In this document: positions 32,245-62,912 of the stretch, one piece after another
How the letters are laid out: each line of letters opens with the position of its first letter
Numbering within the stretch: position 1 is the stretch's first letter
Source: a virus
Lineage: Duplodnaviria; Caudoviricetes
Virus record (IMG/VR): IMGVR_UViG_3300037247_001786
Span: 64,001-128,000 of that record
Strand: one strand, 5' to 3'
DNA: 64,000 nucleotides
Position numbers and translations under genes: made by a program
Notes under the pieces: model-generated
Seen by the model: the letters and a program-made list of their open reading frames with translations, nothing else
The model's database searches: none
Told to the model about the DNA's origin: nothing

Positions 32245-33279
32245 ATGGAACAAGTAAAAAGAGACCCAACAAAAGCAGCGAAAGCAAAAATCAAAAAAAT
32301 GTTATCTAAATACAATTGGATAATAGCGGAGCCGTATTACGACACAGTAATAGACAATGGCTCAACGGGTAAAAGTAAGACATTTATAACGCTTAGACAG
32401 TTTAAGGAGCGTATAGACGAAGGACAAAGCCTTAAAGCAATGAAGGGAGAAGGAGTCTCAAAACACTTAATCCAATTCTTTAGTAATTTTCTTCAAGGTA
32501 AGATTAAATTAACAAAATCAGATTTCGAAGATAGATATAATGAAGGAAAAGAGCTAGACGAAATTTGTGCCGAATTTAATGTCCAACGAGGAGACCTTAC
32601 TTATCTTCGGCAACTTTATGGAATTAAAAGAAAAGGGGCAACTTTTATTAAGAGAAAAAAAACAGAAGAACCTCTTACCCAAATTCAAAAAGATCTTATC
32701 TATGGTTCTTTGATGGGAGACGCAAAATCCCAGAATAATAAGTGGAATACTTCAGTCGGTTTTGGGCACGGGCGAACACAAAAAGAGTATGTAGAATGGA
32801 AGCACTCTTTACTGAAGAATATTTCTACTCCAAAAGGTATAACTAAATATTCTTACTATGACGAAAGATATAAAAAAGATTACGATACATATAGATTTTA
32901 TACTCTCGCTAATTCCGACGTTGAAGAGATATTGCATAAGTTCTATACCAGTGACGGAAAACAAATTAACAACGATATCTTAGATCATTTATCTGCTTTT
33001 TCTATTGCTGTTTGGTATATGGATGACGGATATGCAGATAAAGGGAAATACGGAATAACTAATTATATCTTTTGTACTGACTCTTTCTCCTCTGAATCCT
33101 GTGACAATATAGTTAAATGGTTCGATGAAAAATGGGGGATTAAATCCCATAAGAGAGAGCGTCAACTAAGTGATAGAATAGGATATCGAATTGTTATTAG
33201 GGCAGAATCGAGAGATAGATTCATTTCTCTAGTCGAACCTCACCTCATTCCGTCGCTTCGATACAAAATAGAATTGTAA
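32245..33279 (+). mobile_element. Free-standing LAGLIDADG homing endonuclease
   Basis: LIYGSLMGDA and SIAVWYMDDG helices; FCTDSF; ends LIPSLRYKIEL. Confidence 0.85.
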
Positions 33280-47624: not shown

Positions 47625-48128
47625 ATGAAAGAATTTAAAACAAAAAATTACATTGAAAAAAAAGCTCAATTTAATACTGATTTACCAGGAGATCCAGGGT
47701 TACCTTCAGGAGTTAGTGATCAAATAATATCAGACCAATTTGACGGAGGAGATTCTACAGATTATTCAAAACAAGCTGGGGAATATGAAACGAAAGTGGA
47801 TTGGGCAGAGGAAACTCAAGAGTTAGTTAACGCTGGTTATGACGTTATGGGTCTTCCTCAGAGAGGGTTAGGAGATATAAAAGTTTATTTTGAGTACGAC
47901 GCACAGGTTTATGGAGGAGATGTTACTATCTCTAATATTCGGCTTTTAGATATCAAAGTTCTGATGGGGGGTCAATATCAAGCTTTAACAGTTAAGGAGC
48001 CAGCAACTAAAGAGGGTCTCTTTGAGGGTCTTCAGGAGGAGATAGTTGAGCAAGAGCGGATAATAATTAAAGAACAACATGAAGGAAGTATAGGTATAAG
48101 ACCTGACAGAACAGAAGAATTATATTAA
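47625..48128 (+). CDS. Hypothetical protein with N-terminal KKAQF motif
   Basis: GAGG SD; MKEFKTKNYIEKKAQF. Confidence 0.6.
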   Translation: MKEFKTKNYIEKKAQFNTDLPGDPGLPSGVSDQIISDQFDGGDSTDYSKQAGEYETKVDWAEETQELVNAGYDVMGLPQRGLGDIKVYFEYDAQVYGGDVTISNIRLLDIKVLMGGQYQALTVKEPATKEGLFEGLQEEIVEQERIIIKEQHEGSIGIRPDRTEELY

Positions 48129-48132
48129 AAGC

Positions 48133-48159
48133 AAAAGCCTCCGTTTGGGGGCTTTTTTT
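48133..48159 (+). terminator. Rho-independent terminator
   Basis: AAAAGCCTCC-GTTT-GGGGGCTTTT plus T-run. Confidence 0.85.
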
Positions 48160-48225
48160 GTGAGACTATTTTAAGTTCTCTATTTTTGTCGATTAATATT
48201 TACTTATAGATAAGGGAGAAAAAAT

Positions 48226-48522
48226 ATGTCTTTTACTCAAGAAGAAGCAGAGAAAGCTATTACTTATGCAAAAAATGGGGCTATGTTTATGTTTAGAGCT
48301 AATTCAGAGTTGTCTGGTGAGATATTAAAGGGAGGGGATTCTATAAAAGGAATGCCGATATTTATTCAAGACATGATGATGACTAGAGAGTGGATAAATA
48401 TTGACGATATTATGGTAGTAAAGTATTTTTCAAAAACTTTAGATAAAAAAAATACTTATCTATTTGATAGAGGTGATATAAAAGTGATACCAGAGCCTTG
48501 GAATCCAATTAAAATTAGTTAG
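48226..48522 (+). CDS. Hypothetical protein
   Basis: GGGAG SD. Confidence 0.55.
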   Translation: MSFTQEEAEKAITYAKNGAMFMFRANSELSGEILKGGDSIKGMPIFIQDMMMTREWINIDDIMVVKYFSKTLDKKNTYLFDRGDIKVIPEPWNPIKIS

Positions 48523-48535
48523 AGGAGAATCAAAA

Positions 48536-48823
48536 ATGGAAACAGAAAATAAAAATATAAAGAATGATACTAAAAAGAAAGTTTCTAAGAAAAAAAAGGT
48601 AGAAGAGGTTAACGAAATAATTAGTAGTGTATCTTGTATTGATCTTGAAAATAAGTTTTTATTAGTTCGAGTAGGCACAATTGATAATCCTGCATCAACT
48701 GACCAGATTAATGAAGTTCAGGAGAAATTAGAAGATATGCTTAATAAACATAATATAAAATGTTTAGCTTTTGTAACTCATCATGCGGTAGATATGACAT
48801 TGATAGAGAAGCGTGTAATTTAA
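48536..48823 (+). CDS. Hypothetical protein
   Basis: GAGGAG SD; LLVRVGT...PAS resembles the portal segment VRVVKVGD..PAT. Confidence 0.55.
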   Translation: METENKNIKNDTKKKVSKKKKVEEVNEIISSVSCIDLENKFLLVRVGTIDNPASTDQINEVQEKLEDMLNKHNIKCLAFVTHHAVDMTLIEKRVI

Positions 48824-48836
48824 ATAAGGACTTTAC

Positions 48837-49262
48837 ATGAAGAATAAAAACGATAAAACTATTTTTAATAATTTTTTAGAATATTGGTATTTTGCTAGAT
48901 TCTTTTCAGATCATCAGAAAGAGATCATATTTAATAGTTTATCATTCAAAGAGCAAGACGCTTTAATAAAATCTTGCAATAAAGGGGGATGGGATGATGT
49001 TCTAAATAGAAATATTTTAGACGAGATACTCGATGATATAAAAAAAGAAACTGGGTATAATTTAATAGATATTCGCTATAAAGTGTTGCACAATAAGAGC
49101 GTCTATATTCCTACTGAATTTTGGTTACATGTACTATCTCAATTTAAAGATTATGACAAAAAACAAATAAATTATATTTTAGGGGGCATCAAGGCTGTAA
49201 AGTGTGATCAAAATTCAGATATTACATTACTTACACCATTTTATTCTAAACTTAAGGAGTAG
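48837..49262 (+). CDS. Hypothetical protein
   Basis: AGGA SD; 141 aa. Confidence 0.55.
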   Translation: MKNKNDKTIFNNFLEYWYFARFFSDHQKEIIFNSLSFKEQDALIKSCNKGGWDDVLNRNILDEILDDIKKETGYNLIDIRYKVLHNKSVYIPTEFWLHVLSQFKDYDKKQINYILGGIKAVKCDQNSDITLLTPFYSKLKE

Positions 49263-49263
49263 T

Positions 49264-49971
49264 ATGTCAAAAAAGAAATCTCGGGCAAACGGAACTGTTA
49301 CAGAATTAAAAAGAACAAAAGATCTTGGTTTTAGCACAAAAAAGAAAGTTACCCTTTCTGCGAAAACTGAAAATCAAAAACAACTATTTAAATCAATTAA
49401 GCATAATGTAATAACTATAGCTACGGGACCACCAGGAACTGGGAAAACTCTTATATCTGTCGTGAGTGCTTTAAAATCTCTTATAGACTGCAAGTACGGT
49501 AAAATAATTTTCACTCGTCCTTGTATAGAGGCAGATGGCGAGAATTTAGGCTTTTTACCAGGCGATTTAAATGAGAAAATATCTCCATACATGATGCCAA
49601 TTTTTGATTTCTTATCAGGGTATTTAGATAAAGTTCAAATAGAAAAAATGATATTAAATGGAAATATTATGACAATCCCTCTTGCTTTTATGAGGGGTAT
49701 AACATTTGAGAACTCTTTTGTCCTATTAGATGAATGTCAAAATACCACTCCCAAACAGATGAAAATGGTTTTAACTAGAATAGGGGAAAACTCTCAAGTA
49801 GTAATGACTGGAGACCCTAATCAATCAGATATAAAAGGAACAAACGGTTTAGTAGATATTGTAACTAGACTGGATAATGTTCCTGATATAGGTATCGTTC
49901 GCTTTACAGAAGAGGATATCGTGAGACATGGAATTGTTAAAATTATAGAGAAACGTTACGAAGGAGTTTAA
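49264..49971 (+). CDS. phoH: PhoH family ATPase (start moved to 49264)
   Basis: TGPPGTGKT, GFLPGDLNEK, AFMRG.TF, LDECQN and GDP.QSD; AGGAG SD before 49264. Confidence 0.9.
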   Translation: MSKKKSRANGTVTELKRTKDLGFSTKKKVTLSAKTENQKQLFKSIKHNVITIATGPPGTGKTLISVVSALKSLIDCKYGKIIFTRPCIEADGENLGFLPGDLNEKISPYMMPIFDFLSGYLDKVQIEKMILNGNIMTIPLAFMRGITFENSFVLLDECQNTTPKQMKMVLTRIGENSQVVMTGDPNQSDIKGTNGLVDIVTRLDNVPDIGIVRFTEEDIVRHGIVKIIEKRYEGV

Positions 49972-50051
49972 CTCAATAAAATAAAGGTTTTTGCGGAAAA
50001 TATAACAATGTATAAAAATATATTTTAATATGCAATAACTGGAGTGTAGAT

Positions 50052-52793
50052 ATGTCATTTTTAAAGAAAATATTAGGAAGAGTTTATAAAAATAGTGGTC
50101 AAGGGTTCAATTTAAAGAATCAAATGATGAAAAAAGCGGTTGTGGCTGAAGAAACTGGATACCTTCCAGACACCCTTACTCCTTTAGAAGATTTTGACGA
50201 AACAGGACAGATGCAACCGAAACAAGTAGACCCTTCATATAGTGTTGCTATGGAGAGATACATAGATCAAAATGTGAATGAATCTCAACTCCCCCCAATA
50301 CCTTCAGAGTGGGTAGACGATATAAATTTAAGAATGCATTTTCAAAATATAGCTCAACAAAGAATAGGAAATATGTCTGAGTCATTTGTATCTAGAGCAT
50401 TTCAAGCTACTATGATGGCGAAAGAAGCCCCTGTTTCACCTCAACAACAAGCTCCTCAACAACAATCTCCTCAACAGCAGGGAGATGACTATGTTGACAT
50501 TGACACTGACCTGGTAACTAAATTTTTAGATACTCCTCATGCTCTTTCTGTTTTAGATTCCATATCTACATCAATACTTCAGTCTGGATACAGCCAGGTT
50601 AACAATAAAGATACGGCTGATGCTAGGGCTTGGCAATCGGTCGCCTTTGCGTTAGGTCCTCCTATCGCTAAAAAAAGAGGAGAAGGTATTAGAAGGGACC
50701 AAAGATTTAATTATTTTCTTTTTAACCCTGACAAGATGCCAGTGGATATTTCTCGCGATTATCAACAGTTTTTAGTAGCCAATCCTGAAATAAAAACAGA
50801 TCAAGCTATAGAATATTTAAAAAGTAACTTCGGCGATAAATTAATAACTGCTTTAAATGAGGATATTAATAATAATGATCCAAGTATTAAACAGTGGATA
50901 TTAAAGCAGGAAGGACATGTCGCTAAAGACGAAACGGACGAACAGATAGGAGTATCATTGACGGGAGGAGGAGATGATGCTGATGCCTATAATTTACAAG
51001 AAGAAGACATAGGCTCTATGAATTTAAACAGAGTGGAACAAAGAGAGAAAGACGTAAGAGAAATATCGGATGAAAAAAATTCTTTAACTAGATCCGTAAA
51101 GGCTTTTGCTAAATTATACATACAAGATGTGGTTAGAGATATGAAAGAAGTTTTATCAAAAGCTGTAGAAAGTAGCTATAATAAATATCCAGGTAAAGAG
51201 TCTTACAATATAGAAAGAATGAATTTATTTAACAAGAAACTATTAGATCAATATTTAGAAATATTTAATTCTGACCCTGTGATTGACCCTAAAACGGGTG
51301 CCGTCTCTTTTAGAAAATACCAACAAGACCCTAAAAATCCCAATAAACAGATATATACTGCAAGAATAGATATTCCTCAAGAAGATATAATTAGTATTTT
51401 TAAAGGAAATATAGAAAAAGACGTTACTGATCTTTATAGAGATATTAAAGATCAAAGAAAAGAAGGGAAAGCTGATTTTGATATTTTAAATTGGTTTAAA
51501 AAGTCTCAAGATAAGGGAATTCTTCCTCATACTGCGTTGCAGGATAGTTATAAAAAAGCTTATATTATTAAATCTATTATCAGAAATGCTCTCAAGAAAA
51601 ATACGATAGATGGAATTGCTTCTAACCCTGAACATATTTTTACTGGATCAAAAGAGATGGGAAGTGAGGAGATGTTAAAAATGTTATACCAGCTTTCTAA
51701 TTCAGATGAACAGGGAATATCTAAAGAAGAGAGAAAGAGAAGAGTTGCAAGATATATTGATATGACAGAAAAGGATGCACAGAACCCCAAGGGGGGTAAT
51801 TATGAGATGTATAAAACATTTGCTGATATGAAGAGGCAAAATTTAGAGCCAGGTAGTGAAGAGTCTAAAGAGATGGCAAATTCAATGAAGCCTTATGCTC
51901 AATATGACTCAATGTATCTTATGGAAGGTCTAAATGATGCGAAACAAAATCAATCAGATCCATATCATAGCGATGTTTTTAAAGCATTTTTAGGGGCATT
52001 GAATCCACACAAGAGGGTAAGAACAGGTAAGTTATCAAATATATATAATAGTTTGATGGGGAAGGGAGAAGAATATAAAGAAGATGTATCAATGCTCTCT
52101 AAAAAAGAAGCGATACAATATCGAAATTTAAAACTAAGCAAGATGCGTTACGAAAGCACGCTACAAGATAAAGAAAAAGCTATTGAAACGCAGCATGTAA
52201 AAATAAAAAAAGTAACAGACAAATATCATGCTCGCATATCTAAAGCTCTTATTTCAGCTAATAAGAAAAGAAAAATACAAGGATTAAGAGATATGAGTAT
52301 GGGAGAGTATGTAGGTAAACCAGAGTGGGACGGAAAGTCGCCTCTTCATTATGAAGATTATATCAGAGCTGGCATAAACAAAGCTAAAGATTCCCTATGG
52401 GGGAAAGACGAAGCTACTCATTGGAGAGATTTTGGACCAATGAGGCAGATAGAGACTATTAAGAATAGAGAGCCTCAACCTACATACAATGAAGCTGGAG
52501 ATAGAATAGAGCCTCCTATCAGGTCTCAAAATGTTCAATTTATTAAAAATAAAATACAAGAAGCAAATTTAGCGTTAGACGAGTTTAGAAAAACTCATAA
52601 AATTACCGATATTCAAGACAGAATGGCAGAAGCATTATGTAAGACGTATCTTGTAAAAATAGCCTCTATAAAAGAGACTGTAAGTAGATACAGTAATATG
52701 AAAATAGCTTTTAACGTATCTATATTTAATAATATGGTGCAAGATATACATAATAATTTTGAATTAGAGTTTAATAAAATATTTGGAATATAA
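50052..52793 (+). CDS. 913-aa hypothetical protein, possibly an internal head protein
   Basis: Late-type upstream motif; GFNLK near the N-terminus; KIAS and KIAF near the C-terminus. Confidence 0.55.
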   Translation: MSFLKKILGRVYKNSGQGFNLKNQMMKKAVVAEETGYLPDTLTPLEDFDETGQMQPKQVDPSYSVAMERYIDQNVNESQLPPIPSEWVDDINLRMHFQNIAQQRIGNMSESFVSRAFQATMMAKEAPVSPQQQAPQQQSPQQQGDDYVDIDTDLVTKFLDTPHALSVLDSISTSILQSGYSQVNNKDTADARAWQSVAFALGPPIAKKRGEGIRRDQRFNYFLFNPDKMPVDISRDYQQFLVANPEIKTDQAIEYLKSNFGDKLITALNEDINNNDPSIKQWILKQEGHVAKDETDEQIGVSLTGGGDDADAYNLQEEDIGSMNLNRVEQREKDVREISDEKNSLTRSVKAFAKLYIQDVVRDMKEVLSKAVESSYNKYPGKESYNIERMNLFNKKLLDQYLEIFNSDPVIDPKTGAVSFRKYQQDPKNPNKQIYTARIDIPQEDIISIFKGNIEKDVTDLYRDIKDQRKEGKADFDILNWFKKSQDKGILPHTALQDSYKKAYIIKSIIRNALKKNTIDGIASNPEHIFTGSKEMGSEEMLKMLYQLSNSDEQGISKEERKRRVARYIDMTEKDAQNPKGGNYEMYKTFADMKRQNLEPGSEESKEMANSMKPYAQYDSMYLMEGLNDAKQNQSDPYHSDVFKAFLGALNPHKRVRTGKLSNIYNSLMGKGEEYKEDVSMLSKKEAIQYRNLKLSKMRYESTLQDKEKAIETQHVKIKKVTDKYHARISKALISANKKRKIQGLRDMSMGEYVGKPEWDGKSPLHYEDYIRAGINKAKDSLWGKDEATHWRDFGPMRQIETIKNREPQPTYNEAGDRIEPPIRSQNVQFIKNKIQEANLALDEFRKTHKITDIQDRMAEALCKTYLVKIASIKETVSRYSNMKIAFNVSIFNNMVQDIHNNFELEFNKIFGI

Positions 52794-52796
52794 AAT

Positions 52797-52967
52797 ATGA
52801 ATATTACGACGGTATGCTCTCATTGTAGAAATCACGATAAAGAGCCGAATATAGAGATTAATTTCAAAGATGGAGCTGTTTATTATATTTGCCCAGAATG
52901 TAAAAAAGAGAGTAAAATACTTTTAAAAGCAGAAGGTAAACCTTTTCCTAAATTAAGAAGAGTATAA
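52797..52967 (+). CDS. 56-aa zinc-finger protein (not in ORF track)
   Basis: CSHC...YICPEC. Confidence 0.55.
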   Translation: MNITTVCSHCRNHDKEPNIEINFKDGAVYYICPECKKESKILLKAEGKPFPKLRRV

Positions 52968-52974
52968 TATTTTT

Positions 52975-53547
52975 ATGTTTTTTATTGTAAATACTACAAA
53001 GAACTCTTTATGTATCGCTGATCTAAAATTAACATTAGGACCTCGACAGGGAATAGATCTAGACAAGAGAAATAAAAGAGAAGAGGCTGAAAAATCTCAA
53101 GGATTAAAGTCTTTAGTATCTAAAGGTCTTATTTCTATTAAAAATAAAACTAAACCAGAAGTCCAGTCTAATTTTATACAAGAAATTCATAACCATAGCG
53201 AGATAGATACTGATCAGATGAAGAAAGAGATTATGGAGGGGGTTAAAGAAGCGATAGCTGAAAATATGCCTCCTCAACCAACTCCTCAACAGCCAAATAT
53301 TAATATGGAGGAATTGGCTAAGATGATAGCATCTATTATCCCTCAGTTGAACAATAATGCCAATTTAAATTCTACTCCAAAAGATGAAGAAGTTAAAGTA
53401 GATGAGGGTATTTTAGCCGATATACATAGTAGAGTTGTTAATAAAATAGTTAAAAACGTTGAAAGTGGCGATATTAATTATCAGAAAGAGAAAACAAGTA
53501 ATACTATAGATGATAATATTGATGAATTAGAAGGTTTATTAGAATAA
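52975..53547 (+). CDS. Hypothetical protein with the shared N-terminal domain
   Basis: FFIVNTTKNSLCIADL...S.GLKSLVSKGLI. Confidence 0.6.
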   Translation: MFFIVNTTKNSLCIADLKLTLGPRQGIDLDKRNKREEAEKSQGLKSLVSKGLISIKNKTKPEVQSNFIQEIHNHSEIDTDQMKKEIMEGVKEAIAENMPPQPTPQQPNINMEELAKMIASIIPQLNNNANLNSTPKDEEVKVDEGILADIHSRVVNKIVKNVESGDINYQKEKTSNTIDDNIDELEGLLE

Positions 53548-53559
53548 TAGGAGATAAAG

Positions 53560-54609
53560 ATGTCTAGAGCAATAGCGTGGGATCCTGGAACGATGTTTTT
53601 TCAGATAGCGGAAAAAAATGGAGAGGAAATAGATATAAATATAATTAGAAATGCTTTTGTTGAATTGGAAGCGACAGATGATATTGAGCAAGTGTTGGAG
53701 CAAAATAATTGGCAATATATCTCTGATGGTAAGAAGTTCTATATTATAGGTGAAGATAGTTTAAGGGTTGCGAAGATGTTCCCTGGCAAAGTTGAGCTAA
53801 GAAGACCTATGCAGGATGGAGTTCTTAATAAAGGTGAGGACAAAAAGATGTTAGTTATGACAAAGATGCTGGAAGACGTAATAGGTAAAGCATCAGATAA
53901 TAGTTCAATGGTTTGTTTTTGTGTCTCTTCTGAATCGGTAGATAACAATATTGATAACACATTTCATAAAGCTAGGCTAGAGGGGATGGCTAAAAGATTA
54001 GGATATAATACTAAGGTAATCGAAGAGGGTCACGCGGTAGTTTTAGCGGAACGCCCAGTAATGATAGAGGCAGACGGCACTGAGTCTCCTTATTCTGGTA
54101 TAGGGATTTCTTTTGGAGCCGGAAAAGTTAATTGCGTATTAGCTTATAAGGGGTTGCCAATTATCGGGATGTCAGCTACGAGAAGTGGAGACTATATTGA
54201 TCAAAAAGTATCAGAGCAAACAGATACTCCAATAGCTCAAGTTACCACTATTAAAGAAAAAAGTTTAGATTTCGACAATATAGATTATGATGATGATGTT
54301 ATTTTTGCATTAGATGCGTATTATACAAATATGTTAGAATATGTATTTAAAAACTTTTCAATAAAATTTCAGGAGGTTAAAAGTCAATTCGAGGCTCCTC
54401 TTGATATAGTCATCGCTGGCGGAACATCTATGCCTAAAGGATTTAGGAATAAGGTTCAAAGAGTTATAAATAAATTGGATTTACCATTTCAGATTAAGGA
54501 AGTTAAACTTTCTCAAGATCCTAGAAATGCGGTAGTTAAGGGATGCTTGACTCAAGCAATTATTTCTCAAAAAAAGTTTAAAGCGAAATCAGCAGATACG
54601 ATAATTTAA
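53560..54609 (+). CDS. Actin-like ATPase (ParM/MreB/FtsA superfamily)
   Basis: Phosphate-1 WDPGT, connect-1 IEEGHA, phosphate-2 ISFGAGKV, adenosine IAGGTS and connect-2 PRNAVVKG. Confidence 0.8.
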   Translation: MSRAIAWDPGTMFFQIAEKNGEEIDINIIRNAFVELEATDDIEQVLEQNNWQYISDGKKFYIIGEDSLRVAKMFPGKVELRRPMQDGVLNKGEDKKMLVMTKMLEDVIGKASDNSSMVCFCVSSESVDNNIDNTFHKARLEGMAKRLGYNTKVIEEGHAVVLAERPVMIEADGTESPYSGIGISFGAGKVNCVLAYKGLPIIGMSATRSGDYIDQKVSEQTDTPIAQVTTIKEKSLDFDNIDYDDDVIFALDAYYTNMLEYVFKNFSIKFQEVKSQFEAPLDIVIAGGTSMPKGFRNKVQRVINKLDLPFQIKEVKLSQDPRNAVVKGCLTQAIISQKKFKAKSADTII

Positions 54610-54690
54610 ATAAAGGTTTCCAGAAGAAAAAAAGAGAAGTTATACTGAATAAATAGAAGTGTAACTTCTCTTTTTTAATGGAGGCTCATA

Positions 54691-55416
54691 ATGGGTTATT
54701 GTACTCAAACAGATATAGAAAATGTTATTGCACAGGCATTAACTAGTGCAACCGCTTCAAGCCCAGACTCGTTTGGGACACTATCTTCTCTTATTAATAT
54801 AGGGAATTCTCTTGATAAAAATTTAGTTCCAGATTCGTCAGTAGATTATTATATCCAAATGGCTGATAGGGAGGTAGATGCTTCATTGAGCGAACTTTAC
54901 TCCACTCCATTTTGCGAATTAGCTAATTTTGAAACAGTTCTATTCTCTGATATTTACGAATATAATCCTTATATTGTGACAGAAAGAGCATGTCCGCTCG
55001 CCGTAGGAGACCAGGTTATTATTTTAGGTTCTGGGCAAGAGGAAAGACATGTTATAGATGAGGTTATTAGCTCTATGATTTTTTCTACCGAAGATGAAAT
55101 AGGATTTTCATTTACTGCTGATAGTAGGGTTGTTAGGGTATCTTATCCGGATCCTATTAGATTTATCTCCGCAAGAAAAGCGTCAGCTACCCTATATGAT
55201 AAATATTTTTCTTCAGAAAGTTCTCCTAACGTTTCTAAATTTGGAGAATACTTAAGGCAATTAGCATTTACTGATACTAATAATATTTTAAATGGAACAA
55301 CTATTTTACATGGACAACATAGAATAGGTCGTAGATTTTATAATAGTAATTTGGTTGACCAGTATGGATTACCTCAGGGTGGAGCTATTTCAAAAGATAT
55401 GAGGCAAATAAAATAA
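54691..55416 (+). CDS. Head-tail adaptor/connector-like protein
   Basis: MGYCTQTDIE...IQMADREVDASL..LYSTP, a Mu gp36/HK97 gp6-like pattern with an inserted beta domain. Confidence 0.6.
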   Translation: MGYCTQTDIENVIAQALTSATASSPDSFGTLSSLINIGNSLDKNLVPDSSVDYYIQMADREVDASLSELYSTPFCELANFETVLFSDIYEYNPYIVTERACPLAVGDQVIILGSGQEERHVIDEVISSMIFSTEDEIGFSFTADSRVVRVSYPDPIRFISARKASATLYDKYFSSESSPNVSKFGEYLRQLAFTDTNNILNGTTILHGQHRIGRRFYNSNLVDQYGLPQGGAISKDMRQIK

Positions 55417-55692
55417 ATGAATCAAGATCAAGATGGAATTGAATATTTAGAAGAGTTATCTTCTAAGATAAATAAGTACCAAGGAGTAAGCGAACTAGGA
55501 GAAGAGCTTCAGGTAGGAATACGATTATCGAAGACAAATAAAGGGGCAAGAACAAATGCTAGGATAGAGTCGGCTCAGAAAAAAGAACCGTTTGATGAGA
55601 CAGAAACTATTGAAGAGGAATTGATGGACGTAGAAGATGACATAACGGGTGAATTAATAAATAGAATGCTAACAGATATATTTGGAATATAA
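55417..55692 (+). CDS. Hypothetical neck-region protein
   Basis: Operon position. Confidence 0.5.
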   Translation: MNQDQDGIEYLEELSSKINKYQGVSELGEELQVGIRLSKTNKGARTNARIESAQKKEPFDETETIEEELMDVEDDITGELINRMLTDIFGI

Positions 55693-55695
55693 GAT

Positions 55696-56601
55696 ATGGC
55701 GATGCAAGAAGTTTTAGATAGTGTAAGGCGGATAGTTCATAAATGGGTGAACACTATTACTCCTATAACAGCAAACATTACGCCTGGGGACACTGTTATC
55801 TCTGTTCAGAATGTTAGGCGTTTTCAAATAGGTGATCAGATAATGGTAAAAGGGTCACAAAAGTACGAGACAGGTCTTATTATAGAAGAAACCGATTCCA
55901 CATTACAAACTATAACAGTGACAACTCCTCTTCTTAATAGTTGGGTAGTCTCTCCAAATACCACGATAATAAAAACAATAGGAGAGCAATTTGTTCAAGG
56001 TATATATATAGGAGACCCTGATGTTATTATTAAGTTTCCTGCTATCACTGTAAGTGGGGCTAGCAGGTCTTCAGAATGGCTTACTCTCGAAAGCACAAAA
56101 GAAAGATATGAAATAGAAATAGGAGTTTTTGTTCAAGACTCTACTCATGAAAAAGGATATAGATTTCTTATGGCTTTAGTTGATACAATACAAAAAGGAT
56201 TAAAAAGGAATGTCTTACCAATGATATACGATGCTGAATTTTCTGCTCTTAAAACAAACTATACAAATAATGATCCTAATATAATTGTTAGCGATAGTAG
56301 TATTTTTGAACCATATCAAAGAATATATATAGAAGATCCAACACAATTTGTTGAGACATGGACGGATGTTATTTATAGCGATGGCGAAACTATAAAGTTA
56401 AAATGGCCTCTTGACTTAGCTTTTGATAAAGACGATACCATTATTACTATCCCTCATAGATTTATATTTAATTCTTGGCCTGCAACTATTAATTATGGAA
56501 AAATACACAAAGGGCAATTACTTAAAGCCGCTACTATTAGTTGGTTTGCAGAAGAGGAAGAATCTCAGTTCTTACGAAGAGATGAGGGGAAAATATTTTA
56601 A
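55696..56601 (+). CDS. Putative tail terminator/completion protein
   Basis: FPAITV...RYEIEIGVFV; position before the tube gene. Confidence 0.5.
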   Translation: MAMQEVLDSVRRIVHKWVNTITPITANITPGDTVISVQNVRRFQIGDQIMVKGSQKYETGLIIEETDSTLQTITVTTPLLNSWVVSPNTTIIKTIGEQFVQGIYIGDPDVIIKFPAITVSGASRSSEWLTLESTKERYEIEIGVFVQDSTHEKGYRFLMALVDTIQKGLKRNVLPMIYDAEFSALKTNYTNNDPNIIVSDSSIFEPYQRIYIEDPTQFVETWTDVIYSDGETIKLKWPLDLAFDKDDTIITIPHRFIFNSWPATINYGKIHKGQLLKAATISWFAEEEESQFLRRDEGKIF

Positions 56602-56747
56602 AATAAAAAAGGATTATTCGGTAATAGAAAGAATGATTATTTATCAGCTTATTTAACTGATAAAACAAATAAAAGGAATAATAATATAATGTTAGAATAT
56701 TATTATAAGAACCTGTAATTAGTAAAGATTAATAACGGAGATAAAAT

Positions 56748-57230
56748 ATGGCAGATTTTCAAGAAACATATGTAAAAATAGCGGAAGCTACTGCTGCTTC
56801 AAGAGACGCTCTTAATGATGCTGTAACCCCTTTAGGAGACTCTACTTCTTATGATGGGCTTGGCAGTGATGGAAATGTTAAGGTTATTGTTGATGTACAG
56901 TCTTCAGGAGAAACTGGCGATTTTAATGAAAGTACTATTTCAGAGATTCAATTCGAAATAGACACATTAGTCCCAGCTAATTCTACTTGGACACAAGTAA
57001 GAGATATAGCTACATCTGATTCAGCGTACACAGTACTCGTAACAGCATTAAATAATTATGTAATTAATAATGTTTTAGGCGAGGTAAGTGATTCAGGTAC
57101 AGATAGCGGTAGTTATCAAGCAACCTTACAGCTTTTCATTGAGAACGATTGTGTTTGGAGCGATCCTAGCTTAGGATCTCCAGCATCATGGTTGTCATTA
57201 TCAACATCTGCTGGATTTACAGTACTATAA
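56748..57230 (+). CDS. Hypothetical virion protein
   Basis: GGAG SD; acidic; lies between terminator and tube genes. Confidence 0.5.
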   Translation: MADFQETYVKIAEATAASRDALNDAVTPLGDSTSYDGLGSDGNVKVIVDVQSSGETGDFNESTISEIQFEIDTLVPANSTWTQVRDIATSDSAYTVLVTALNNYVINNVLGEVSDSGTDSGSYQATLQLFIENDCVWSDPSLGSPASWLSLSTSAGFTVL

Positions 57231-57255
57231 TAAGAATTTTTAAGGGAGATAAAAA

Positions 57256-58245
57256 ATGGCTACAAATCCTTTCTTTGACCAGCCACCTGCATATATGGGA
57301 TATGTTGGTTTCGTCAATATTGATGGAAACATCATCAGGGCGACATCGGCTGATATTGCATTAACGCAAGACATTACAAAACCTGACGTTGTAGATGGAC
57401 GTATTGACAGGACAGTCTATCAGCTTGGACCTCAAGAGGTTGGAGGTTCAGTAGCTTTTCCTGCGATATATGACAATGCTGGAGGAGTAACAACGATAGC
57501 AAATATGTGGGAAAAAGTTTGCAAAAGAACAGAGTTAGGCACTTTGTTAAGTTTCCCTATTACTGTTAAGTACGCTCAAACTGGAACATATAATAGTTCA
57601 AGTTTTACTTATGATAATTGCGTAGCAAATAGTCTTCAATTTTCTGTAACTCAGGGAGACGTTATGAATGTAAGTATGGACGTTATAGGGCTAACAAGAA
57701 CGCCTGTATCGATACCAGACCCACCTGGAACTTCTACTTCTACGGATAACAGCAGAATTGTAACATGGGCTGATTCAAGAATAGAGATAAACGCAGGAGA
57801 TCAACGTCCTATTGGATTGGCAGGACAAATCGGAGGTCAATTCATTAGGTCTTTTGAAGTTAATATAAGTAACAACGTAGAAAGATTTTATACTTTGAAT
57901 AAGGCGTTATTTGCTCAAGCGGTAGCTCCTTCCAAGAGAGACGTAACAGGCAATATAGTTGTTCTCGGTAGACTACCAGGTTTATCAGAATTAGCATTTA
58001 CAAATGAAAATTATGCATACGAAGATACAGAGATCCGTTTTGGATTCACTCCTTCTATTGGCAGCTCCGAATTTATTAGAAGAATCCCTAATGTTGTTTT
58101 CCAAATTGAAGAAATGTCAATTACTAACAACTTATTTGAAACTACAATGAATTGGCATTCGCTTCCAGCTGCAAGAATTGCAAGTTCGACAACTACAGCG
58201 ACGACAGATCCTTTATTGGATACAACTTTCACTACTACCTATTAA
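57256..58245 (+). CDS. Tail tube protein
   Basis: Beta-rich (VGGSVAFP, NSLQFSV..GDV.NVSMDVIG, FEVNISNN, RDVTGNI); followed by a terminator and chaperone genes. Confidence 0.7.
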   Translation: MATNPFFDQPPAYMGYVGFVNIDGNIIRATSADIALTQDITKPDVVDGRIDRTVYQLGPQEVGGSVAFPAIYDNAGGVTTIANMWEKVCKRTELGTLLSFPITVKYAQTGTYNSSSFTYDNCVANSLQFSVTQGDVMNVSMDVIGLTRTPVSIPDPPGTSTSTDNSRIVTWADSRIEINAGDQRPIGLAGQIGGQFIRSFEVNISNNVERFYTLNKALFAQAVAPSKRDVTGNIVVLGRLPGLSELAFTNENYAYEDTEIRFGFTPSIGSSEFIRRIPNVVFQIEEMSITNNLFETTMNWHSLPAARIASSTTTATTDPLLDTTFTTTY

Positions 58246-58253
58246 ACACTTTT

Positions 58254-58283
58254 AAAAGGGGCGACAAGTTCGCCCCTTTTTTT
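58254..58283 (+). terminator. Rho-independent terminator after the tube gene
   Basis: AAAAGGGGCGA-CAAGT-TCGCCCCTTTT plus T-run. Confidence 0.85.
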
Positions 58284-58394
58284 CTTTTCCCCCCACACCC
58301 CCCCACTTATCGAAAAAAGTCTTTTTTTTCGATATATATAATGCAGGGAATCTGCATAGATATTAAATCATTATTATTAAAAGGAGGACATACT

Positions 58395-58826
58395 ATGTCT
58401 CTATTTGATGCAAGCTCTATAGAAGTAAAGCTTTATTATATCTTTAGGAAAAAAGATAATTCTACTATTTTAACAGTTTTAAGTGACGAGAAGGCTGAAA
58501 AAATGTTAGCAGATGATGAAAAGAAGAAAGAAGTAGAAGTTTTAATTACTCAATGGTCAGTTATGAGTTGGGATGAGCAAAATGCTTCAGTTAAGTATGC
58601 TTATGATAAAGTCAATGAGATAACAGGTGAAAAAATATTTGATCATGTTGCTTATCGAGATGCCATTATAAAATCCTGTTTAAAAGGTTGGGATATTGAG
58701 ATAAATGGGCAACCGGCACCATTAACACCAGAAAATATTAATAGATTGCCAGGTGAAGTAGTGATGGCTATATACTCGAAGTATGAGCAAACGTTAAGTT
58801 ACACTGAAGCTGAATTAAAAAACTAG
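58395..58826 (+). CDS. Tail assembly chaperone (start moved to 58395)
   Basis: AGGAGG SD; LKGWDI...PLTPENINRLP; ends at the slippery heptamer A AAA AAC. Confidence 0.7.
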   Translation: MSLFDASSIEVKLYYIFRKKDNSTILTVLSDEKAEKMLADDEKKKEVEVLITQWSVMSWDEQNASVKYAYDKVNEITGEKIFDHVAYRDAIIKSCLKGWDIEINGQPAPLTPENINRLPGEVVMAIYSKYEQTLSYTEAELKN

Positions 58827-59624: not shown

Positions 59625-62600
59625 ATGGCTGAATCAGAAAACATAGAACAGCTTATTGAACGTACTATAAAAATATATCTTGAATCAGAGGGTTTTGCTG
59701 ATCTAGATAGAGGCGTTAAATCTGTTAAGAGAGAGATAGATGCTCTCCGTAAGTCCGCAAAAAATGCGGGAAACACTATCACTGATTTAAATAAAGAGAT
59801 GCTTGACAGTGTTAAAAAGTATATCTCTCAACAATCAAAACAGTCTAAAGAAGTAACTGGTCTTACTAAAAAATATAAAATGCTTGGACAAGCGGCTAGG
59901 GGAACTAATAGGTACCTTGGAGAAATGGGCATCGGACTTCGGAAGATAGCTGGTTTTTCTAGTTTGGGGAAAATGATAGGGGAAGCAATATCTTTTGAAA
60001 AATCTCTTCTTAAACTTTCTTCGTCTACTAACAGACTAGGGATAGGGATTACCTCTTTAGAAAATAAAATAATTAGCATGTCTATCTCTACAAAATTAAC
60101 TAGAAAAGAGACGGTGGAATTATTTTCTGAATTTAATAAAAATTATAAATTTGTTTCATTTAGAGAATTCGAATCATTGCTTGGTCGAATACAGATGATG
60201 GTTGGGACTAATAAGGAAGCAATACAGGGATATATGTCATCTGTTTCTTCTTTGTCTCAAAAATATGCTGGATTAGCACAACAAATAGCTCTAATAGGTA
60301 AGGGAGGAACTGCTGAGGATGAGAAATTTATAGCATCTAGATTACAGATGTTATATCTTACCAATCAGATTGGGGATAGCGAATATCGAAATATAATAGC
60401 GGTTGTTAGAGGAAATCGTCAATTATCTAAATATGACAGAATTCGACAACAGCAAGCGAAAGATCAGGTTGAAGCTGCTGCTAAGTTTAAATTACATATG
60501 GAAAATGTTGCCATAAGTATAGGGCAAACAATATTACCTCTTTTAGAAAAAATTTCTGACATTCTGGATAACTTAACAAATGGAGGAGAAAATTGGGGTA
60601 AGGCAATGCTATCGGGTATTGCTATTCTGGGGACAGCTAGGCTTGGGGTAGCCGCGTTATCGATGGGAGGCAGAGCTTTAGCCTCTGGTGCTATAGGAGC
60701 AGGTGGAGCCGCGGCAGCAGGAGGAGCTACTGGGATAGGGATAGCAGGGGCTGCTGGAGCATCAATGCTACCAGCCGCTGGAGTATTAGGAGGAGTCGCT
60801 GTTGGAGGAGCTGTTGCTTATGTAGGGGATAGAGCTAGAGGTGAATACGAAGATAGAAGTAGGAAACAAAGCGGTTGGGCGGCGGTAGGTACAGAGACAA
60901 AAGGGCATGCTGCAGGGGCACTGTCGGCAGGAGCTGGAGGAGCACTAATAGGTGCTGCTATCGGAACATTTATTCCCATTCCAGGATTAGGAACAGCTTT
61001 GGGAGCTGCTATAGGTTTTGCTACAGGATCTCTTATTGGGCTAGGTAGGACGATACAAGCGGATGTGGAGTATAATTCTGATAAAGCGAGAAAAGCACGA
61101 GCACGAACAGAACTGGTAAAAAGAAAAGCTGAAGCAGAAATAAATAGGGGAAGAAAGCAGGAAACGTCTGACGCTATGGAGTCAGGTCGGATGAAAGGCA
61201 CATTGGCTAGAACTCCAGGTGACATGATGAGTATTTATACTTCGGCAGCGACAGTAAGAGAGTCTTTTAAAATAGCAGAAGAAAAAGCATATGCTACTTT
61301 AGGAGGAAAAGAGGCTTTCGGGGCAAAAATAAAAACAGCCGGAGAGGGACTTCAAACTGCAAGGCAGGGAGAAGGGTCTATACGTGCAGATATTAAAAAG
61401 GTTAAAGACTCAGAGGAAGGGACTAAAAAAGAGAGAAAAGAAAGAGTAAAATCTTTGCGAGCGATGTTAGCTGTACAGAAAGAAGAGGTCGCACAAAGAG
61501 AAGCTGCTGCCGAGAAACTGAAAGAACAAGAAAATGAGATATTAGAAACTTTGCATAGTCAAAATGTAGAGCTAGTTAAATCAGAAGCTTCTTTTGATGC
61601 TATGAAAGAAAGTATTAGAGAGATGGCGGAGTATGCCAAAGAGCTTCAAGGTTTAAAAGAAGCAAAGTTTGGATTAATGGGAGCAGAAGTTGAAAGAATG
61701 GGGCTAACAGGTAATGTAGATACAGGTAGGCTATCTGATCTTAGAGAGGGCACAGTTGCTACTATACTTAAAGCTGTTAAGGCACAAGAATCTTACCTAA
61801 AAGGTGCTAGGATGATTCAGAAAATTCAAGGGGAAGAAGGGAAGAACGCTGAAAAAATAAGATTAGCCGATTTAGTCAAACGAAATATAATGACAAAAGA
61901 AGAGGCTAGTCAATACGGCGATATAAATTCTAAATTAAAAGATATAGTTATTACTGATAAGGAAATAATTAAAGCAGAATCAATTATTATTCAAAAGAAT
62001 AAAGATTTAAATAGGGTTGTGCTTGAAACAAATAAGGCATTTGATGCTAGGGTTAAATATGCGGGATTATTAGCTTCTCAGGCTGAGTTACAGGTTCAAT
62101 TAGCAGATAGTTATGCAATAAGTTTAGGAGCTTCAGCCGAAACTCGTAAAAGAGCATTCGTAGCAATAGGCGAAACGATTAATGAGTTAGAAAAGAAAAG
62201 GCAAGACATTATAAAACAGCAATCTGAACCTCAATCAGAAGCAATAATGCTATCTTTGAAAACGCAAAGATTAACGTTAGAGAATCAGATAACTCAAGAA
62301 CATATCAAGCAAGCTAATTTAGTAAAGGCATTAAGAGATGGGTGGATAGAGGCTGTTGGTGCTATGAATACTGGAGCTGGAACATTCACTAAGATTATAC
62401 TTGATCAAAATAAAGGAACAGCGGCTGCTTTAAGGCTTGCAGGCGACGCAGCTGTTATCTCTAGCGTTAGCGGTAGCATAAGACCTGGTGCAGGATATCG
62501 AACTTCAGAAAGATTTAGTCCTGTTGGAGCTGGGGGCATTTCAGATATAACCGGGGCAACAGGTAAAAGAGATTTAGCTTATAGGACAACAGCGGACGAA

Positions 62601-62912
62601 CAGCTAGGGTTAGCCGTTGGAGGTATTCAAAGAATGGGTAGGGATAGAGCCATTAGAGATATCACGGCAAGAAATAGAGCTGCTGGATCAGGAAACTTAA
62701 CAGGGGTAGCTTTCGGAGGCAGTAGGCACTATGAAGGGGCAATAGGCGAGGGAATGGCTCTTCAAAATAATGTAGGAACAGTTAATGTAAAAGTTACTTT
62801 AGAAACAGATGAGCAAAAAATAGGTGAACAAATAGGTAGGGCAGTTGCACCAGCAGTTAAGAGAATTGTTCATGAAACTTCTGCTCAAATCATTGACGGG
62901 ATTTCTCCTTAG
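59625..62912 (+). CDS. Tape measure protein
   Basis: 1095 aa helical and Ala/Gly-rich with central glycine-zipper/TM-like segments; follows the chaperones. Confidence 0.75.
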   Translation: MAESENIEQLIERTIKIYLESEGFADLDRGVKSVKREIDALRKSAKNAGNTITDLNKEMLDSVKKYISQQSKQSKEVTGLTKKYKMLGQAARGTNRYLGEMGIGLRKIAGFSSLGKMIGEAISFEKSLLKLSSSTNRLGIGITSLENKIISMSISTKLTRKETVELFSEFNKNYKFVSFREFESLLGRIQMMVGTNKEAIQGYMSSVSSLSQKYAGLAQQIALIGKGGTAEDEKFIASRLQMLYLTNQIGDSEYRNIIAVVRGNRQLSKYDRIRQQQAKDQVEAAAKFKLHMENVAISIGQTILPLLEKISDILDNLTNGGENWGKAMLSGIAILGTARLGVAALSMGGRALASGAIGAGGAAAAGGATGIGIAGAAGASMLPAAGVLGGVAVGGAVAYVGDRARGEYEDRSRKQSGWAAVGTETKGHAAGALSAGAGGALIGAAIGTFIPIPGLGTALGAAIGFATGSLIGLGRTIQADVEYNSDKARKARARTELVKRKAEAEINRGRKQETSDAMESGRMKGTLARTPGDMMSIYTSAATVRESFKIAEEKAYATLGGKEAFGAKIKTAGEGLQTARQGEGSIRADIKKVKDSEEGTKKERKERVKSLRAMLAVQKEEVAQREAAAEKLKEQENEILETLHSQNVELVKSEASFDAMKESIREMAEYAKELQGLKEAKFGLMGAEVERMGLTGNVDTGRLSDLREGTVATILKAVKAQESYLKGARMIQKIQGEEGKNAEKIRLADLVKRNIMTKEEASQYGDINSKLKDIVITDKEIIKAESIIIQKNKDLNRVVLETNKAFDARVKYAGLLASQAELQVQLADSYAISLGASAETRKRAFVAIGETINELEKKRQDIIKQQSEPQSEAIMLSLKTQRLTLENQITQEHIKQANLVKALRDGWIEAVGAMNTGAGTFTKIILDQNKGTAAALRLAGDAAVISSVSGSIRPGAGYRTSERFSPVGAGGISDITGATGKRDLAYRTTADEQLGLAVGGIQRMGRDRAIRDITARNRAAGSGNLTGVAFGGSRHYEGAIGEGMALQNNVGTVNVKVTLETDEQKIGEQIGRAVAPAVKRIVHETSAQIIDGISP

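What the first reader, a model, noticed from the sequence alone, without database searches (positions are those of the whole stretch)
53560..54609. Phage actin-like ATPase placed next to the head-tail joining genes
Seen: all five actin-fold motifs, with Ser in place of the usual phosphate-2 Asp (ISFGAG). It is in an apparent operon with a 913-aa protein, a zinc finger and a shared-domain coiled-coil protein whose Q/P-rich linker could be an adaptor. Established: jumbo phages use tubulin (PhuZ) spindles; actin-type phage cytoskeletons are far less characterised. Inference: a filament system that positions DNA, capsids or assembly sites.
Basis: partly seen in the sequence, partly recalled or inferred. 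Interest (0 to 1): 0.7.

Follow-up and report, generated by a model that had tools for sequence, protein, structure and literature searches.

The report
Megaphage volactin-type actin with adaptor
A 461-kb marine-sediment bacteriophage and all its detectable relatives carry, just upstream of their head-to-tail joining and tail genes, a very conserved actin-like protein of the "volactin" family plus a small partner predicted to plug into it, so these phages probably build their own actin filaments, which I found described in no paper.

Summary
ORF 53560-54609 (+) encodes a 349-aa actin-fold protein. It matches Pfam Volactin PF25216 over its full length (213 bits; cut-off 35). It is 33% identical to Haloferax volcanii volactin. 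Its AlphaFold model (pLDDT 96) matches only filament-forming actins in the PDB.

The Ser in place of the phosphate-2 Asp is real, but it is a signature of the whole family, H. volcanii volactin included. It is therefore not a defect.

The gene is a core gene of a clade of 330-550-kb phages. All 27 related loci found through the neighbouring gene have it, 26 directly upstream of that gene. It is the best-conserved gene in the block (58-78% against 24-69%). Homologues carry inteins at three sites around the ATP pocket.

The upstream 190-aa protein has a conserved N-domain, a variable Q/P linker and a conserved C-terminal NIDELExLL helix. A co-fold places that helix in the actin IA/IIA cleft (ipSAE 0.61, best control 0.00).

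The 913-aa neighbour is not conserved, and it shares no detectable domain with the 190-aa protein.

The function is inferred: a late-expressed phage actin cytoskeleton with an adaptor. The cargo is unknown.

The scan has noted the same module on other DNA (47 notes, at least 41 genomes).

The parts
53560..54609 (+). Volactin-family actin (P0001, 349 aa)
   Evidence: Pfam PF25216 213 bits. AF2 model pLDDT 96.1, pTM 0.93. Foldseek PDB top 50 are all MreB/Mbl, BeeR, MamK, actin or Arp. 33% identical to H. volcanii volactin, E 3e-61.
52975..53547 (+). 190-aa candidate adaptor (P0271): conserved N-domain 1-58, variable Q/P linker, conserved C-terminal helix ending NIDELEGLLE
   Evidence: Alignment of 31 homologues. 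Model has a confident N-domain, pLDDT about 90. Co-fold with the actin gives ipSAE 0.61 against controls 0.00. Detected upstream of the actin in 24 of 27 related loci.
52797..52967 (+). 56-aa CxxC...CxxC zinc-ribbon protein, conserved member of the trio
   Evidence: Translation. Weak zinc-ribbon Pfam hits. 39-75% identical in 24 of 27 related loci, always just upstream of the 190-aa gene.
50052..52793 (+). 913-aa protein of unknown fold; position conserved, sequence not
   Evidence: No Pfam or PHROG family. Atlas model pLDDT 0.46, no usable hit. Only one 78-aa BLAST match in relatives, none in 27 loci.
54628..54676 (+). A-tract / 19-bp hairpin / T-tract, terminator-like, in the 81-nt actin-p241 spacer
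   Evidence: Inverted repeat I2, 95% complementary. MFE -31.9 kcal/mol, z -7.8. A hairpin of different sequence lies at the same place in the four closest loci; more distant loci have only 4-13 nt between the genes.
54691..55416 (+). 241-aa probable head-tail adaptor (Mu gp36 / DUF1320-like)
   Evidence: Weak but convergent: phrog_195 head-tail adaptor E 0.008; Pfam Mu Gp36 E 0.079; Atlas neighbours Mu Gp36, Phage_connect_1 and DUF4054 at 0.91-0.95; PDB DUF1320 E 0.47.
55417..57230 (+). Three conserved genes of unknown family (91, 301 and 160 aa) between adaptor and tail tube
   Evidence: The 301-aa gene is syntenic and 31-59% identical in all 27 related loci; the 91-aa and 160-aa genes were matched in only two of the closest loci each. 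No family assigned.
57256..58245 (+). Tail tube protein
   Evidence: Pfam Phage_tube_2 PF18906 E 8.7e-16. phrog_290 E 2.9e-15.
58254..58280 (+). Strong intrinsic terminator after the tail tube gene
   Evidence: 11-bp stem with 6 GC pairs plus a T run; the only G+C-rich + strand terminator match outside coding sequence in 48000-58500.
59625..62912 (+). Tape measure protein (1095 aa)
   Evidence: phrog_794 E 5e-8. Syntenic in relatives.
49204..49971 (+). PhoH-like ATPase, upstream boundary of the conserved block
   Evidence: Pfam PhoH E 1.3e-72. Syntenic in most related loci.

Best explanation
The gene encodes a phage-made, ATP-binding, filament-forming actin of the volactin family. It is transcribed with the zinc-ribbon and 190-aa genes, directly ahead of the head-tail adaptor and tail genes, so it is made late. 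The 190-aa protein acts as an adaptor. Its conserved C-terminal helix inserts into the cleft between actin subdomains IA and IIA, the site used by ParR on ParM and by WH2 or formin-type ligands on actin. Its conserved N-terminal domain, at the end of a flexible linker, holds a cargo. Filament growth or turnover would then position that cargo inside the infected bacterium: most likely virion parts or assembly sites, less likely phage DNA. Shown here: family membership, fold, motif conservation, core-gene status and synteny. Modelled: adaptor docking. Inferred: polymerisation, timing and cargo.
For: Family and fold: Pfam Volactin 213 bits, full length. 33% identity, E 3e-61, to H. volcanii volactin, which forms dynamic filaments in vivo (PMC10869688). 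AF2 pLDDT 96. The top 50 PDB folds are all filament actins. Profile against PDB: MamK 1e-16, BeeR filament 1e-10, FtsA/MreB about 1e-7, DnaK only 0.019. Nucleotide-site residues are invariant or nearly so across the family. Selection: 120 best homologues are 66-86% identical, many on contigs of 100-548 kb. The actin is the most conserved gene of the block in every locus. It sits in a tight, short-branched clade (SH-aLRT 99) apart from the haloarchaeal proteins. Core status: loci fetched with the neighbouring adaptor gene carry the actin in 27 of 27 cases, 26 directly upstream of that gene. Inteins lie at 184/185, 192/193 and 208/209 in homologues, and free-standing HNH genes flank the actin in two relatives; inteins typically sit in indispensable, conserved sites (established knowledge). 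Adaptor: domain-linker-helix architecture. Co-fold ipSAE 0.61 (runs 0.60-0.64), best of 3 controls 0.00; that mark was reached by 58 of 80 solved complexes and 2 of 110 mismatched pairs; runs share at least 89% of contacts; partner pLDDT at least 64. Residues 181-189 touch actin 162-165, 177-178, 197-199 and 330-338. Operon: 3-12-nt gaps, and 4-13 nt between actin and adaptor gene in distant relatives. There is no tubulin/PhuZ in the 461-kb genome.
Against: No experiment exists on any phage member. Polymerisation is inferred from family and fold only. Phosphate-2 lacks the Asp and the Thr-Thr of MreB/MamK (S-x-G-x-G-K-V-N), so the hydrolysis chemistry may differ. The co-fold is a model with my own alignments, and its calibration holds only roughly. 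The N-domain of the 190-aa protein has no recognisable fold (best Z 4.0), so the cargo is a guess. In this window's subclade a terminator-like hairpin separates the actin from the adaptor gene, so co-transcription with the neck genes may be partial. Late timing is inferred from position only.
Confidence: 0.6

Rival explanations
1. A ParMRC/AlpAC-type DNA mover. The actin filaments push or position phage genomes (replication site, packaging site or plasmid-like carriage). The 190-aa protein and/or the zinc ribbon would be the DNA-binding adaptor.
For: The only characterised phage actin, AlpC with its adaptor AlpA, moves prophage DNA (PMC4446434, PMC5539076). Some distant volactin-family proteins are fused to a ParB-type HTH (P0155, P0198). 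The predicted docking site equals that of ParR on ParM (ParR site from memory, Gayathri 2012, cited in PMC5539076). One homologue of the 190-aa protein is labelled 'predicted transcriptional regulator' by JGI.
Against: No iterated centromere-like repeats in 46-58 kb, and the intergenic gaps are 3-12 nt. The module sits in the neck/tail block, not beside replication or partition genes. ParM (PF06406) is not among the Pfam matches. The N-domain of the 190-aa protein shows no DNA-binding fold.
Confidence: 0.2
2. A host-cell remodelling factor. The phage actin changes or maintains the shape or size of the infected cell, or interferes with the host's own MreB/FtsA, as volactin influences cell shape in Haloferax.
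For: Volactin is needed for the timely rod-to-disk transition (PMC10869688). MreB and FtsA are the next-best relatives after MamK and BeeR. Very large virions may need a stabilised or enlarged cell (inference).
Against: No membrane-binding helix or RodZ-like partner was seen. The dedicated soluble adaptor with a long linker suits cargo tethering better. The position in the virion-assembly block also points elsewhere.
Confidence: 0.1
3. A non-filament ASKHA ATPase that serves as an assembly chaperone or minor virion or neck component, in the manner of the closterovirus Hsp70 homologue.
For: It is embedded among neck and tail genes. In the viral structure library the best matches are viral Hsp70 homologues (TM 0.54-0.61). 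Phosphate-2 is atypical.
Against: In the PDB all top 50 matches are polymerising actins and none is Hsp70 or a kinase. Profile scores: MamK 64 bits against DnaK 17 bits. There is no substrate-binding domain; the protein is the bare 349-aa actin core. The characterised family member polymerises. The viral library simply holds no volactin-type protein.
Confidence: 0.07

Closest known systems
Volactin (VolA, HVO_2015) of Haloferax volcanii; Pfam PF25216
   Same: Same Pfam family, full-length match. 33% identity over 332 residues. Same S-x-G-x-G-x-x-N phosphate-2 and G-D-[WY]-I-D motifs. Same bare actin core of about 340 aa.
   Different: This copy is encoded by a bacteriophage (the genome has a tmRNA), not an archaeon. 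It lies in a separate, slowly evolving clade. It sits in a virion neck/tail block with a 190-aa adaptor and a zinc ribbon, whereas the haloarchaeal genes have a different upstream neighbour of about 300 aa. Volactin's known role is cell shape.
AlpC/AlpA of Corynebacterium glutamicum prophage CGP3
   Same: A phage-encoded actin-like protein with a co-transcribed adaptor of no known family that modulates or links the filaments (PMC4446434, PMC5539076).
   Different: AlpAC is an early, ParMRC-like DNA-transport system with alpS repeats in its promoter. Here there are no repeats, the actin family is different, the adaptor lies upstream, and the context is late structural genes. Sequence relationship to AlpC was not tested (no sequence at hand).
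ParM/ParR/parC (type II plasmid partition)
   Same: The predicted mode of adaptor binding is alike: a C-terminal helix in the IA/IIA cleft at the filament's barbed end (ParR site from memory).
   Different: No ParM family match. No centromere. The adaptor is not a recognisable ribbon-helix-helix protein. It is not a plasmid or partition context.
MamK (magnetosome actin) and MreB
   Same: Closest solved relatives by sequence profile (MamK 1e-16) and by fold (MreB/Mbl, MamK; TM 0.60-0.68). All are filament formers.
   Different: Only 15-17% identity in structural alignments. The MreB_Mbl Pfam score of 21.6 is below the cut-off of 27. Asp is replaced by Ser and Thr-Thr by Lys-Val in phosphate-2. 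Subdomain IIB is shorter than in E. coli MreB.
PhuZ tubulin spindle of nucleus-forming jumbo phages
   Same: A functional analogy only: a phage-encoded cytoskeletal polymer in a very large phage (PMC7950403, PMC4244570).
   Different: Tubulin fold versus actin fold. This genome has no tubulin homologue.

Membership tests
Volactin (Pfam PF25216) | Match to the family profile above the curated cut-off, over the full length | tested here: met
   213.4 bits against a cut-off of 35; residues 6-333 on profile 4-321/321. Among 14 control genomes the model passes the cut-off only in H. volcanii.
Volactin (Pfam PF25216) | Direct similarity to the founding protein, H. volcanii volactin | tested here: met
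   BLASTP 33% identity over 332 aa, E 3e-61, to P0394, named volactin [Haloferax volcanii] by NCBI.
Volactin (Pfam PF25216) | Actin fold with the five ASKHA motifs and the family's S-x-G-x-G-x-x-N phosphate-2 | tested here: met
   AF2 pLDDT 96.1. Foldseek hits are filament actins. Motifs.
Volactin (Pfam PF25216) | Dynamic polymerisation in cells | not testable with these tools
   Shown only for H. volcanii VolA (PMC10869688).
ParM / type II partition (ParMRC) | ParM-family sequence match | tested here: not met
   The Pfam scan to E 0.1 lists only Volactin, MreB_Mbl, Actin and FtsA. No ParM among the best 60 PDB profile matches.
ParM / type II partition (ParMRC) | Adjacent centromere of iterated repeats bound by the adaptor | tested here: not met
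   No repeat array in 46-58 kb. Gaps between the genes are 3-12 nt.
ParM / type II partition (ParMRC) | Adaptor C-terminus binds the IA/IIA cleft of the actin | tested here: inconclusive
   The model supports it: ipSAE 0.61 against best control 0.00 (58 of 80 solved and 2 of 110 mismatched pairs reach the mark; at least 89% shared contacts; partner pLDDT at least 64). This is a prediction, not a measurement.
MreB/Mbl (Pfam PF06723) | Score above the curated cut-off | tested here: not met
   21.6 bits against a cut-off of 27, partial match 58-167. E. coli MreB and FtsA are separated from the whole family by very long branches.
AlpC/AlpA (CGP3 prophage) | Sequence relationship to AlpC; alpS repeats in the promoter | not tested
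Repeats are absent here.
PhuZ/TubZ tubulins | Tubulin/FtsZ GTPase domain in the genome | tested here: not met
   PF00091 has no match in the 460,978-bp genome; it rings in 13 of 14 controls.

The most novel reading that the evidence does not exclude
A whole clade of 330-550-kb bacteriophages runs a dedicated actin cytoskeleton as part of its virion assembly line. Volactin-type filaments, capped or tethered by the 190-aa adaptor, would carry or position proheads, tails or the head-tail joining site in the infected cell. This would be an actin counterpart of the PhuZ tubulin spindle. It would also mean that the 'archaeal' volactin family is largely a viral and bacterial cytoskeleton.
Probability: 0.3. 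Interest if true: 0.85.

Novelty: new variant of a known kind. Interest (0 to 1): 0.7.

Why it matters
Phage cytoskeletons are known in depth only for the PhuZ tubulin of nucleus-forming jumbo phages. Among actins, only the prophage DNA mover AlpC has been studied. Here an actin is a core gene of a large clade of megaphages and the best-conserved gene in its block. It is wired into the neck/tail operon, has its own adaptor family, and is conserved enough to be an intein target.

If it polymerises, it opens a testable system for how very large virions are assembled and positioned in bacterial cells. It would also widen the volactin family, known from one archaeal study, to viruses and bacteria.

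The invariant Ser in place of the phosphate-2 Asp, shared with the dynamic H. volcanii protein, is a natural experiment on actin ATPase chemistry.

Tried and rejected
- The 101-sequence alignment was too diverse for a genome-contig scan.
- I guessed that the most acidic homologue (P0186) was haloarchaeal. It lies in a Planctomycetia MAG.
- Cluster look-ups gave almost no taxonomy.
- PHROGs has no family for the actin, the 913-aa protein or the 190-aa protein.
- The phage GenBank collection holds only two distant copies, 28-29% identical, in 485- and 595-kb uncultured phages.
- The BFVD viral structure library has no close match. Its best hits are viral Hsp70 homologues and unnamed proteins of 330-370 aa.
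- 913-aa protein: no family, and a poor Atlas model.
- 190-aa N-domain: best VIA Z is 4.0 (ribosomal L30-like, YqbF). This is too weak to name a fold.
- 'Shared domain' of the 190-aa and 913-aa proteins: BLASTP best E is 0.18.
- The protein upstream of the actin in LR745208 has a similar layout, but hhalign is not significant (E 0.15).
- No centromere-like repeats.
- Expression: no RNA holder listed among the sequencing runs; the only full holder is a marine-sediment metagenome that may be the source.
- aragorn did not call the tmRNA; Rfam did.
- dN/dS was not attempted, because the available DNA relatives are at most 78% identical in protein and synonymous sites would be saturated.

Full report
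**What is there.** The window is bases 64001-128000 of a 460,978-bp virus record with direct terminal repeats. ORF 53560-54609 (+) starts at an ATG eight bases after AGGAG and encodes 349 residues. It matches Pfam Volactin (PF25216) over the whole profile: E 7e-63, 213 bits against a cut-off of 35. MreB_Mbl, Actin and FtsA score below their cut-offs. Among 14 control genomes the Volactin model passes its cut-off only in Haloferax volcanii.

The protein that NCBI names volactin of H. volcanii (P0394) aligns with 33% identity over 332 residues, E 3e-61. An AlphaFold2 model built on 101 homologues has mean pLDDT 96.1 and pTM 0.93. Its 50 best Foldseek matches in the PDB are all polymerising actins: Mbl/MreB, the BeeR filament, MamK, eukaryotic actin and Arps, with TM 0.53-0.66 normalised by the query. 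A profile of the family finds MamK (1e-16), then BeeR (1e-10), then FtsA and MreB (about 1e-7). DnaK scores only 0.019.

**The Ser.** Aligned with E. coli MreB, the five motifs are all present:
- phosphate-1: D8-x-G-T
- connect-1: E156
- phosphate-2: S184-F-G-A-G-K-V-N191, where MreB has D-I-G-G-G-T-T-E
- adenosine: G287-G288
- connect-2: D320-P...G328

Ser184 is invariant in 117 of 117 close and 84 of 86 distant homologues, and N191 is invariant in the close set and present in 85 of 86 distant ones. The same S-F-G-A-G-M-T-N is found in H. volcanii volactin and in the Haloarcula marismortui pNG700 and Halogeometricum pHBOR01 copies. VolA forms dynamic filaments in vivo (PMC10869688). The Ser is therefore a family signature compatible with polymerisation, not a lesion in this copy.

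**Conservation and distribution.** The 120 best homologues of 614 are 66-86% identical, and many lie on contigs of 100-548 kb. An exhaustive search of 50%-identity representatives finds 823 family members at E up to 0.001, 206 of them at E up to 1e-30.

In a maximum-likelihood tree rooted with E. coli MreB and FtsA, the window's protein sits in a clade of 27 rows (SH-aLRT 99). Most end branches there are 0.05-0.3, against about 1 elsewhere in the family. The haloarchaeal proteins lie in a different clade. So this is not a recent capture from haloarchaea.

To ask whether the gene is core or optional, I fetched loci with the neighbouring 241-aa gene instead of the actin. All 27 true relatives carry the actin. 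In 26 it lies directly upstream of the 241-aa gene; in one it is divergent and 6 kb upstream. Identities to the window are as follows:

| Gene | Identity to the window's copy |
|---|---|
| actin | 58-78% (the outlier is 32%) |
| 241-aa protein | 33-69% |
| 301-aa protein | 31-59% |
| tail tube | 28-52% |
| PhoH | 38-65% |
| 190-aa protein | 24-40% |

Contigs in the clade reach 333-548 kb.

**Inteins.** Several homologues of about 700-740 aa are the actin interrupted by an intein. The three sites are:
- between S184 and residue 185, inside phosphate-2 (P0124, P0129, P0146)
- between 192 and 193 (P0130)
- between R208 and 209, just before the G-D-[WY]-I-D motif (P0121, P0125, P0135, P0147)

Pfam confirms intein splicing, LAGLIDADG and HNH domains in P0121, P0124 and P0130. 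Free-standing HNH genes are inserted next to the actin in two relatives. Inteins typically occupy the most constrained sites of indispensable genes (established knowledge). This fits the strong conservation seen here.

**Partners.** The order PhoH, large protein, 56-aa zinc ribbon, 190-aa protein, actin, 241-aa protein, 301-aa protein, tail tube, two small proteins, tape measure is kept in the relatives.

The 190-aa protein has homologues only in this phage clade (75 found). It has a conserved N-terminal domain (invariant L-G-P-R-Q...D-L-D), a variable Q/P-rich linker, and a conserved C-terminus N-I-D-E-L-E-x-L-L. Its model has a confident small alpha/beta domain (1-58), then helices separated by low-confidence linkers.

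A co-fold of the actin with residues 130-190 supports binding:
- ipSAE 0.61 (runs 0.60, 0.61, 0.64); best of three controls 0.00.
- That mark was reached by 58 of 80 solved complexes and 2 of 110 mismatched pairs.
- The runs share at least 89% of contacts, and partner pLDDT is at least 64.
- The calibration holds only roughly, because I used my own alignments.

Residues 181-189 touch actin residues 162-165 (end of the connect-1 helix), 177-178 and 197-199 (subdomain IIA strands) and 330-338 (C-terminal helix). By the canonical actin topology and the model's secondary structure, this is the IA/IIA 'target-binding' cleft. That is where ParR binds ParM and where WH2-type ligands bind actin (from memory; ParR's barbed-end, formin-like action is cited in PMC5539076).

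The 913-aa protein is different. It has no family, almost no similarity to the large protein at the same position in relatives, and no domain shared with the 190-aa protein.

**Transcription.** Gaps between the 913-aa, zinc-ribbon, 190-aa and actin genes are 3, 7 and 12 nt. The 81-nt spacer after the actin holds an A-tract, a 19-bp hairpin and a T-tract, with MFE -31.9 kcal/mol and z -7.8. The four closest loci have a hairpin of different sequence at the same place. The more distant loci have only 4-13 nt between the actin and the 241-aa gene. So the ancestral state is one operon with the neck genes. This subclade may have added a possibly leaky terminator or RNA-stability element. The only G+C-rich + strand terminator outside coding sequence follows the tail tube gene.

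**Surroundings.** The 241-aa protein is probably a Mu gp36/DUF1320-type head-tail adaptor, on weak but convergent evidence. The tail tube (PF18906, 8.7e-16) and tape measure are solid. The portal and a prohead-protease domain lie 38-46 kb upstream in the window. The genome has 36 tRNA genes and a tmRNA (101 bits), which points to a bacterial host (inference). It has no tubulin.

**Mechanism.** I commit to a phage-made actin filament system with the 190-aa protein as a cleft-binding adaptor, produced with the neck/tail genes, that positions a cargo late in infection (confidence 0.6). Family, fold, motifs, core status and synteny are shown. Docking is modelled. Polymerisation, timing and cargo are inferred.

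Rivals:
- An AlpAC/ParMRC-like DNA mover (0.2). It is helped by ParB-HTH fusions in distant family members. It is hurt by the lack of repeats and by the structural context.
- Host-shape remodelling (0.1).
- A non-filament assembly chaperone (0.07).

**Novelty.** Searches for volactin, actin-like with huge phages or megaphage, and phage actin terms returned only the haloarchaeal volactin papers, jumbo-phage reviews that discuss tubulin only, and the AlpC papers. I found no description of volactin-type actins in phages.

The scan itself has noted the same module on other DNA: 47 notes in at least 41 genomes. Those notes gave the lead for the tail-docking test, which I repeated here on this genome's own pair.
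- the family-wide Ser, including in VolA itself
- the three intein sites
- the 27 of 27 core-gene test through an independent marker
- the tree
- the terminator-like hairpin
- the fusions of distant family members

Noticed in passing
window 54628-54676: A-tract, 19-bp hairpin and T-tract between the actin and the 241-aa gene (z -7.8). The structure is conserved with different sequence in the four closest loci and absent (4-13-nt spacer) in more distant ones. Possibly a leaky terminator or an RNA-stability element.
   Followed up: partly
proteins P0121, P0124, P0125, P0129, P0130, P0135, P0146, P0147 (homologues elsewhere): Inteins (LAGLIDADG or HNH type) at three sites of the actin (184/185, 192/193, 208/209), all around the nucleotide pocket.
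   Followed up: yes
L002:8681-9595 and L004:3623-4345: Free-standing HNH endonuclease genes inserted between the 190-aa gene and the actin (L002) or between the actin and the 241-aa gene (L004). L004 also has a 588-aa ORF with a faint ArdC-N match. L038 has a 4.9-kb insertion that I did not examine.
   Followed up: partly
proteins P0155, P0198, P0180, P0131, P0159 (distant family members): Volactin domains fused to an N-terminal ParB-type HTH (P0155, P0198) or to Wzz/GNVR/ParA-like BY-kinase modules (P0180, Planctomycetota MAG), or duplicated in tandem (P0131, P0159). Many others have N-terminal extensions of 150-200 aa.
   Followed up: partly
window 50052-52793: The 913-aa protein has no family and a low-confidence fold. 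A similarly sized but essentially unrelated protein occupies the same slot in relatives, so this is a hypervariable large gene next to a very conserved module.
   Followed up: partly
window 7380-9680 and 10390-15894: The portal protein (phrog_16240, 1e-49) has an HNH-like region in its C-terminal part (residues about 574-720). The 1834-aa protein has only an N-terminal part (about 34-190) resembling a prohead protease.
   Followed up: no
window 32245-33279 and 34694-36175: LAGLIDADG and HNH homing-endonuclease genes, so the genome is rich in selfish endonucleases.
   Followed up: no
genome G000:C1 298915-299266 (L042:3916-4267) and 373-386 kb: tmRNA gene (Rfam RF00023, 101 bits) and an array of 33 tRNA genes (36 in the genome).
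   Followed up: partly
L009:2926-3834 and L010:2800-3699: Both haloarchaeal megaplasmid volactin genes are preceded by a hypothetical protein of about 300 aa on the same strand. Halogeometricum also has an SMC-related gene nearby.
   Followed up: no
L043:4325-4948 (LR745208, 485-kb uncultured phage): Upstream of a 28%-identical volactin-type actin lies a 207-aa protein with a similar layout (small N-domain, P/Q/V-rich linker). hhalign to the 190-aa family is not significant (E 0.15).
   Followed up: yes
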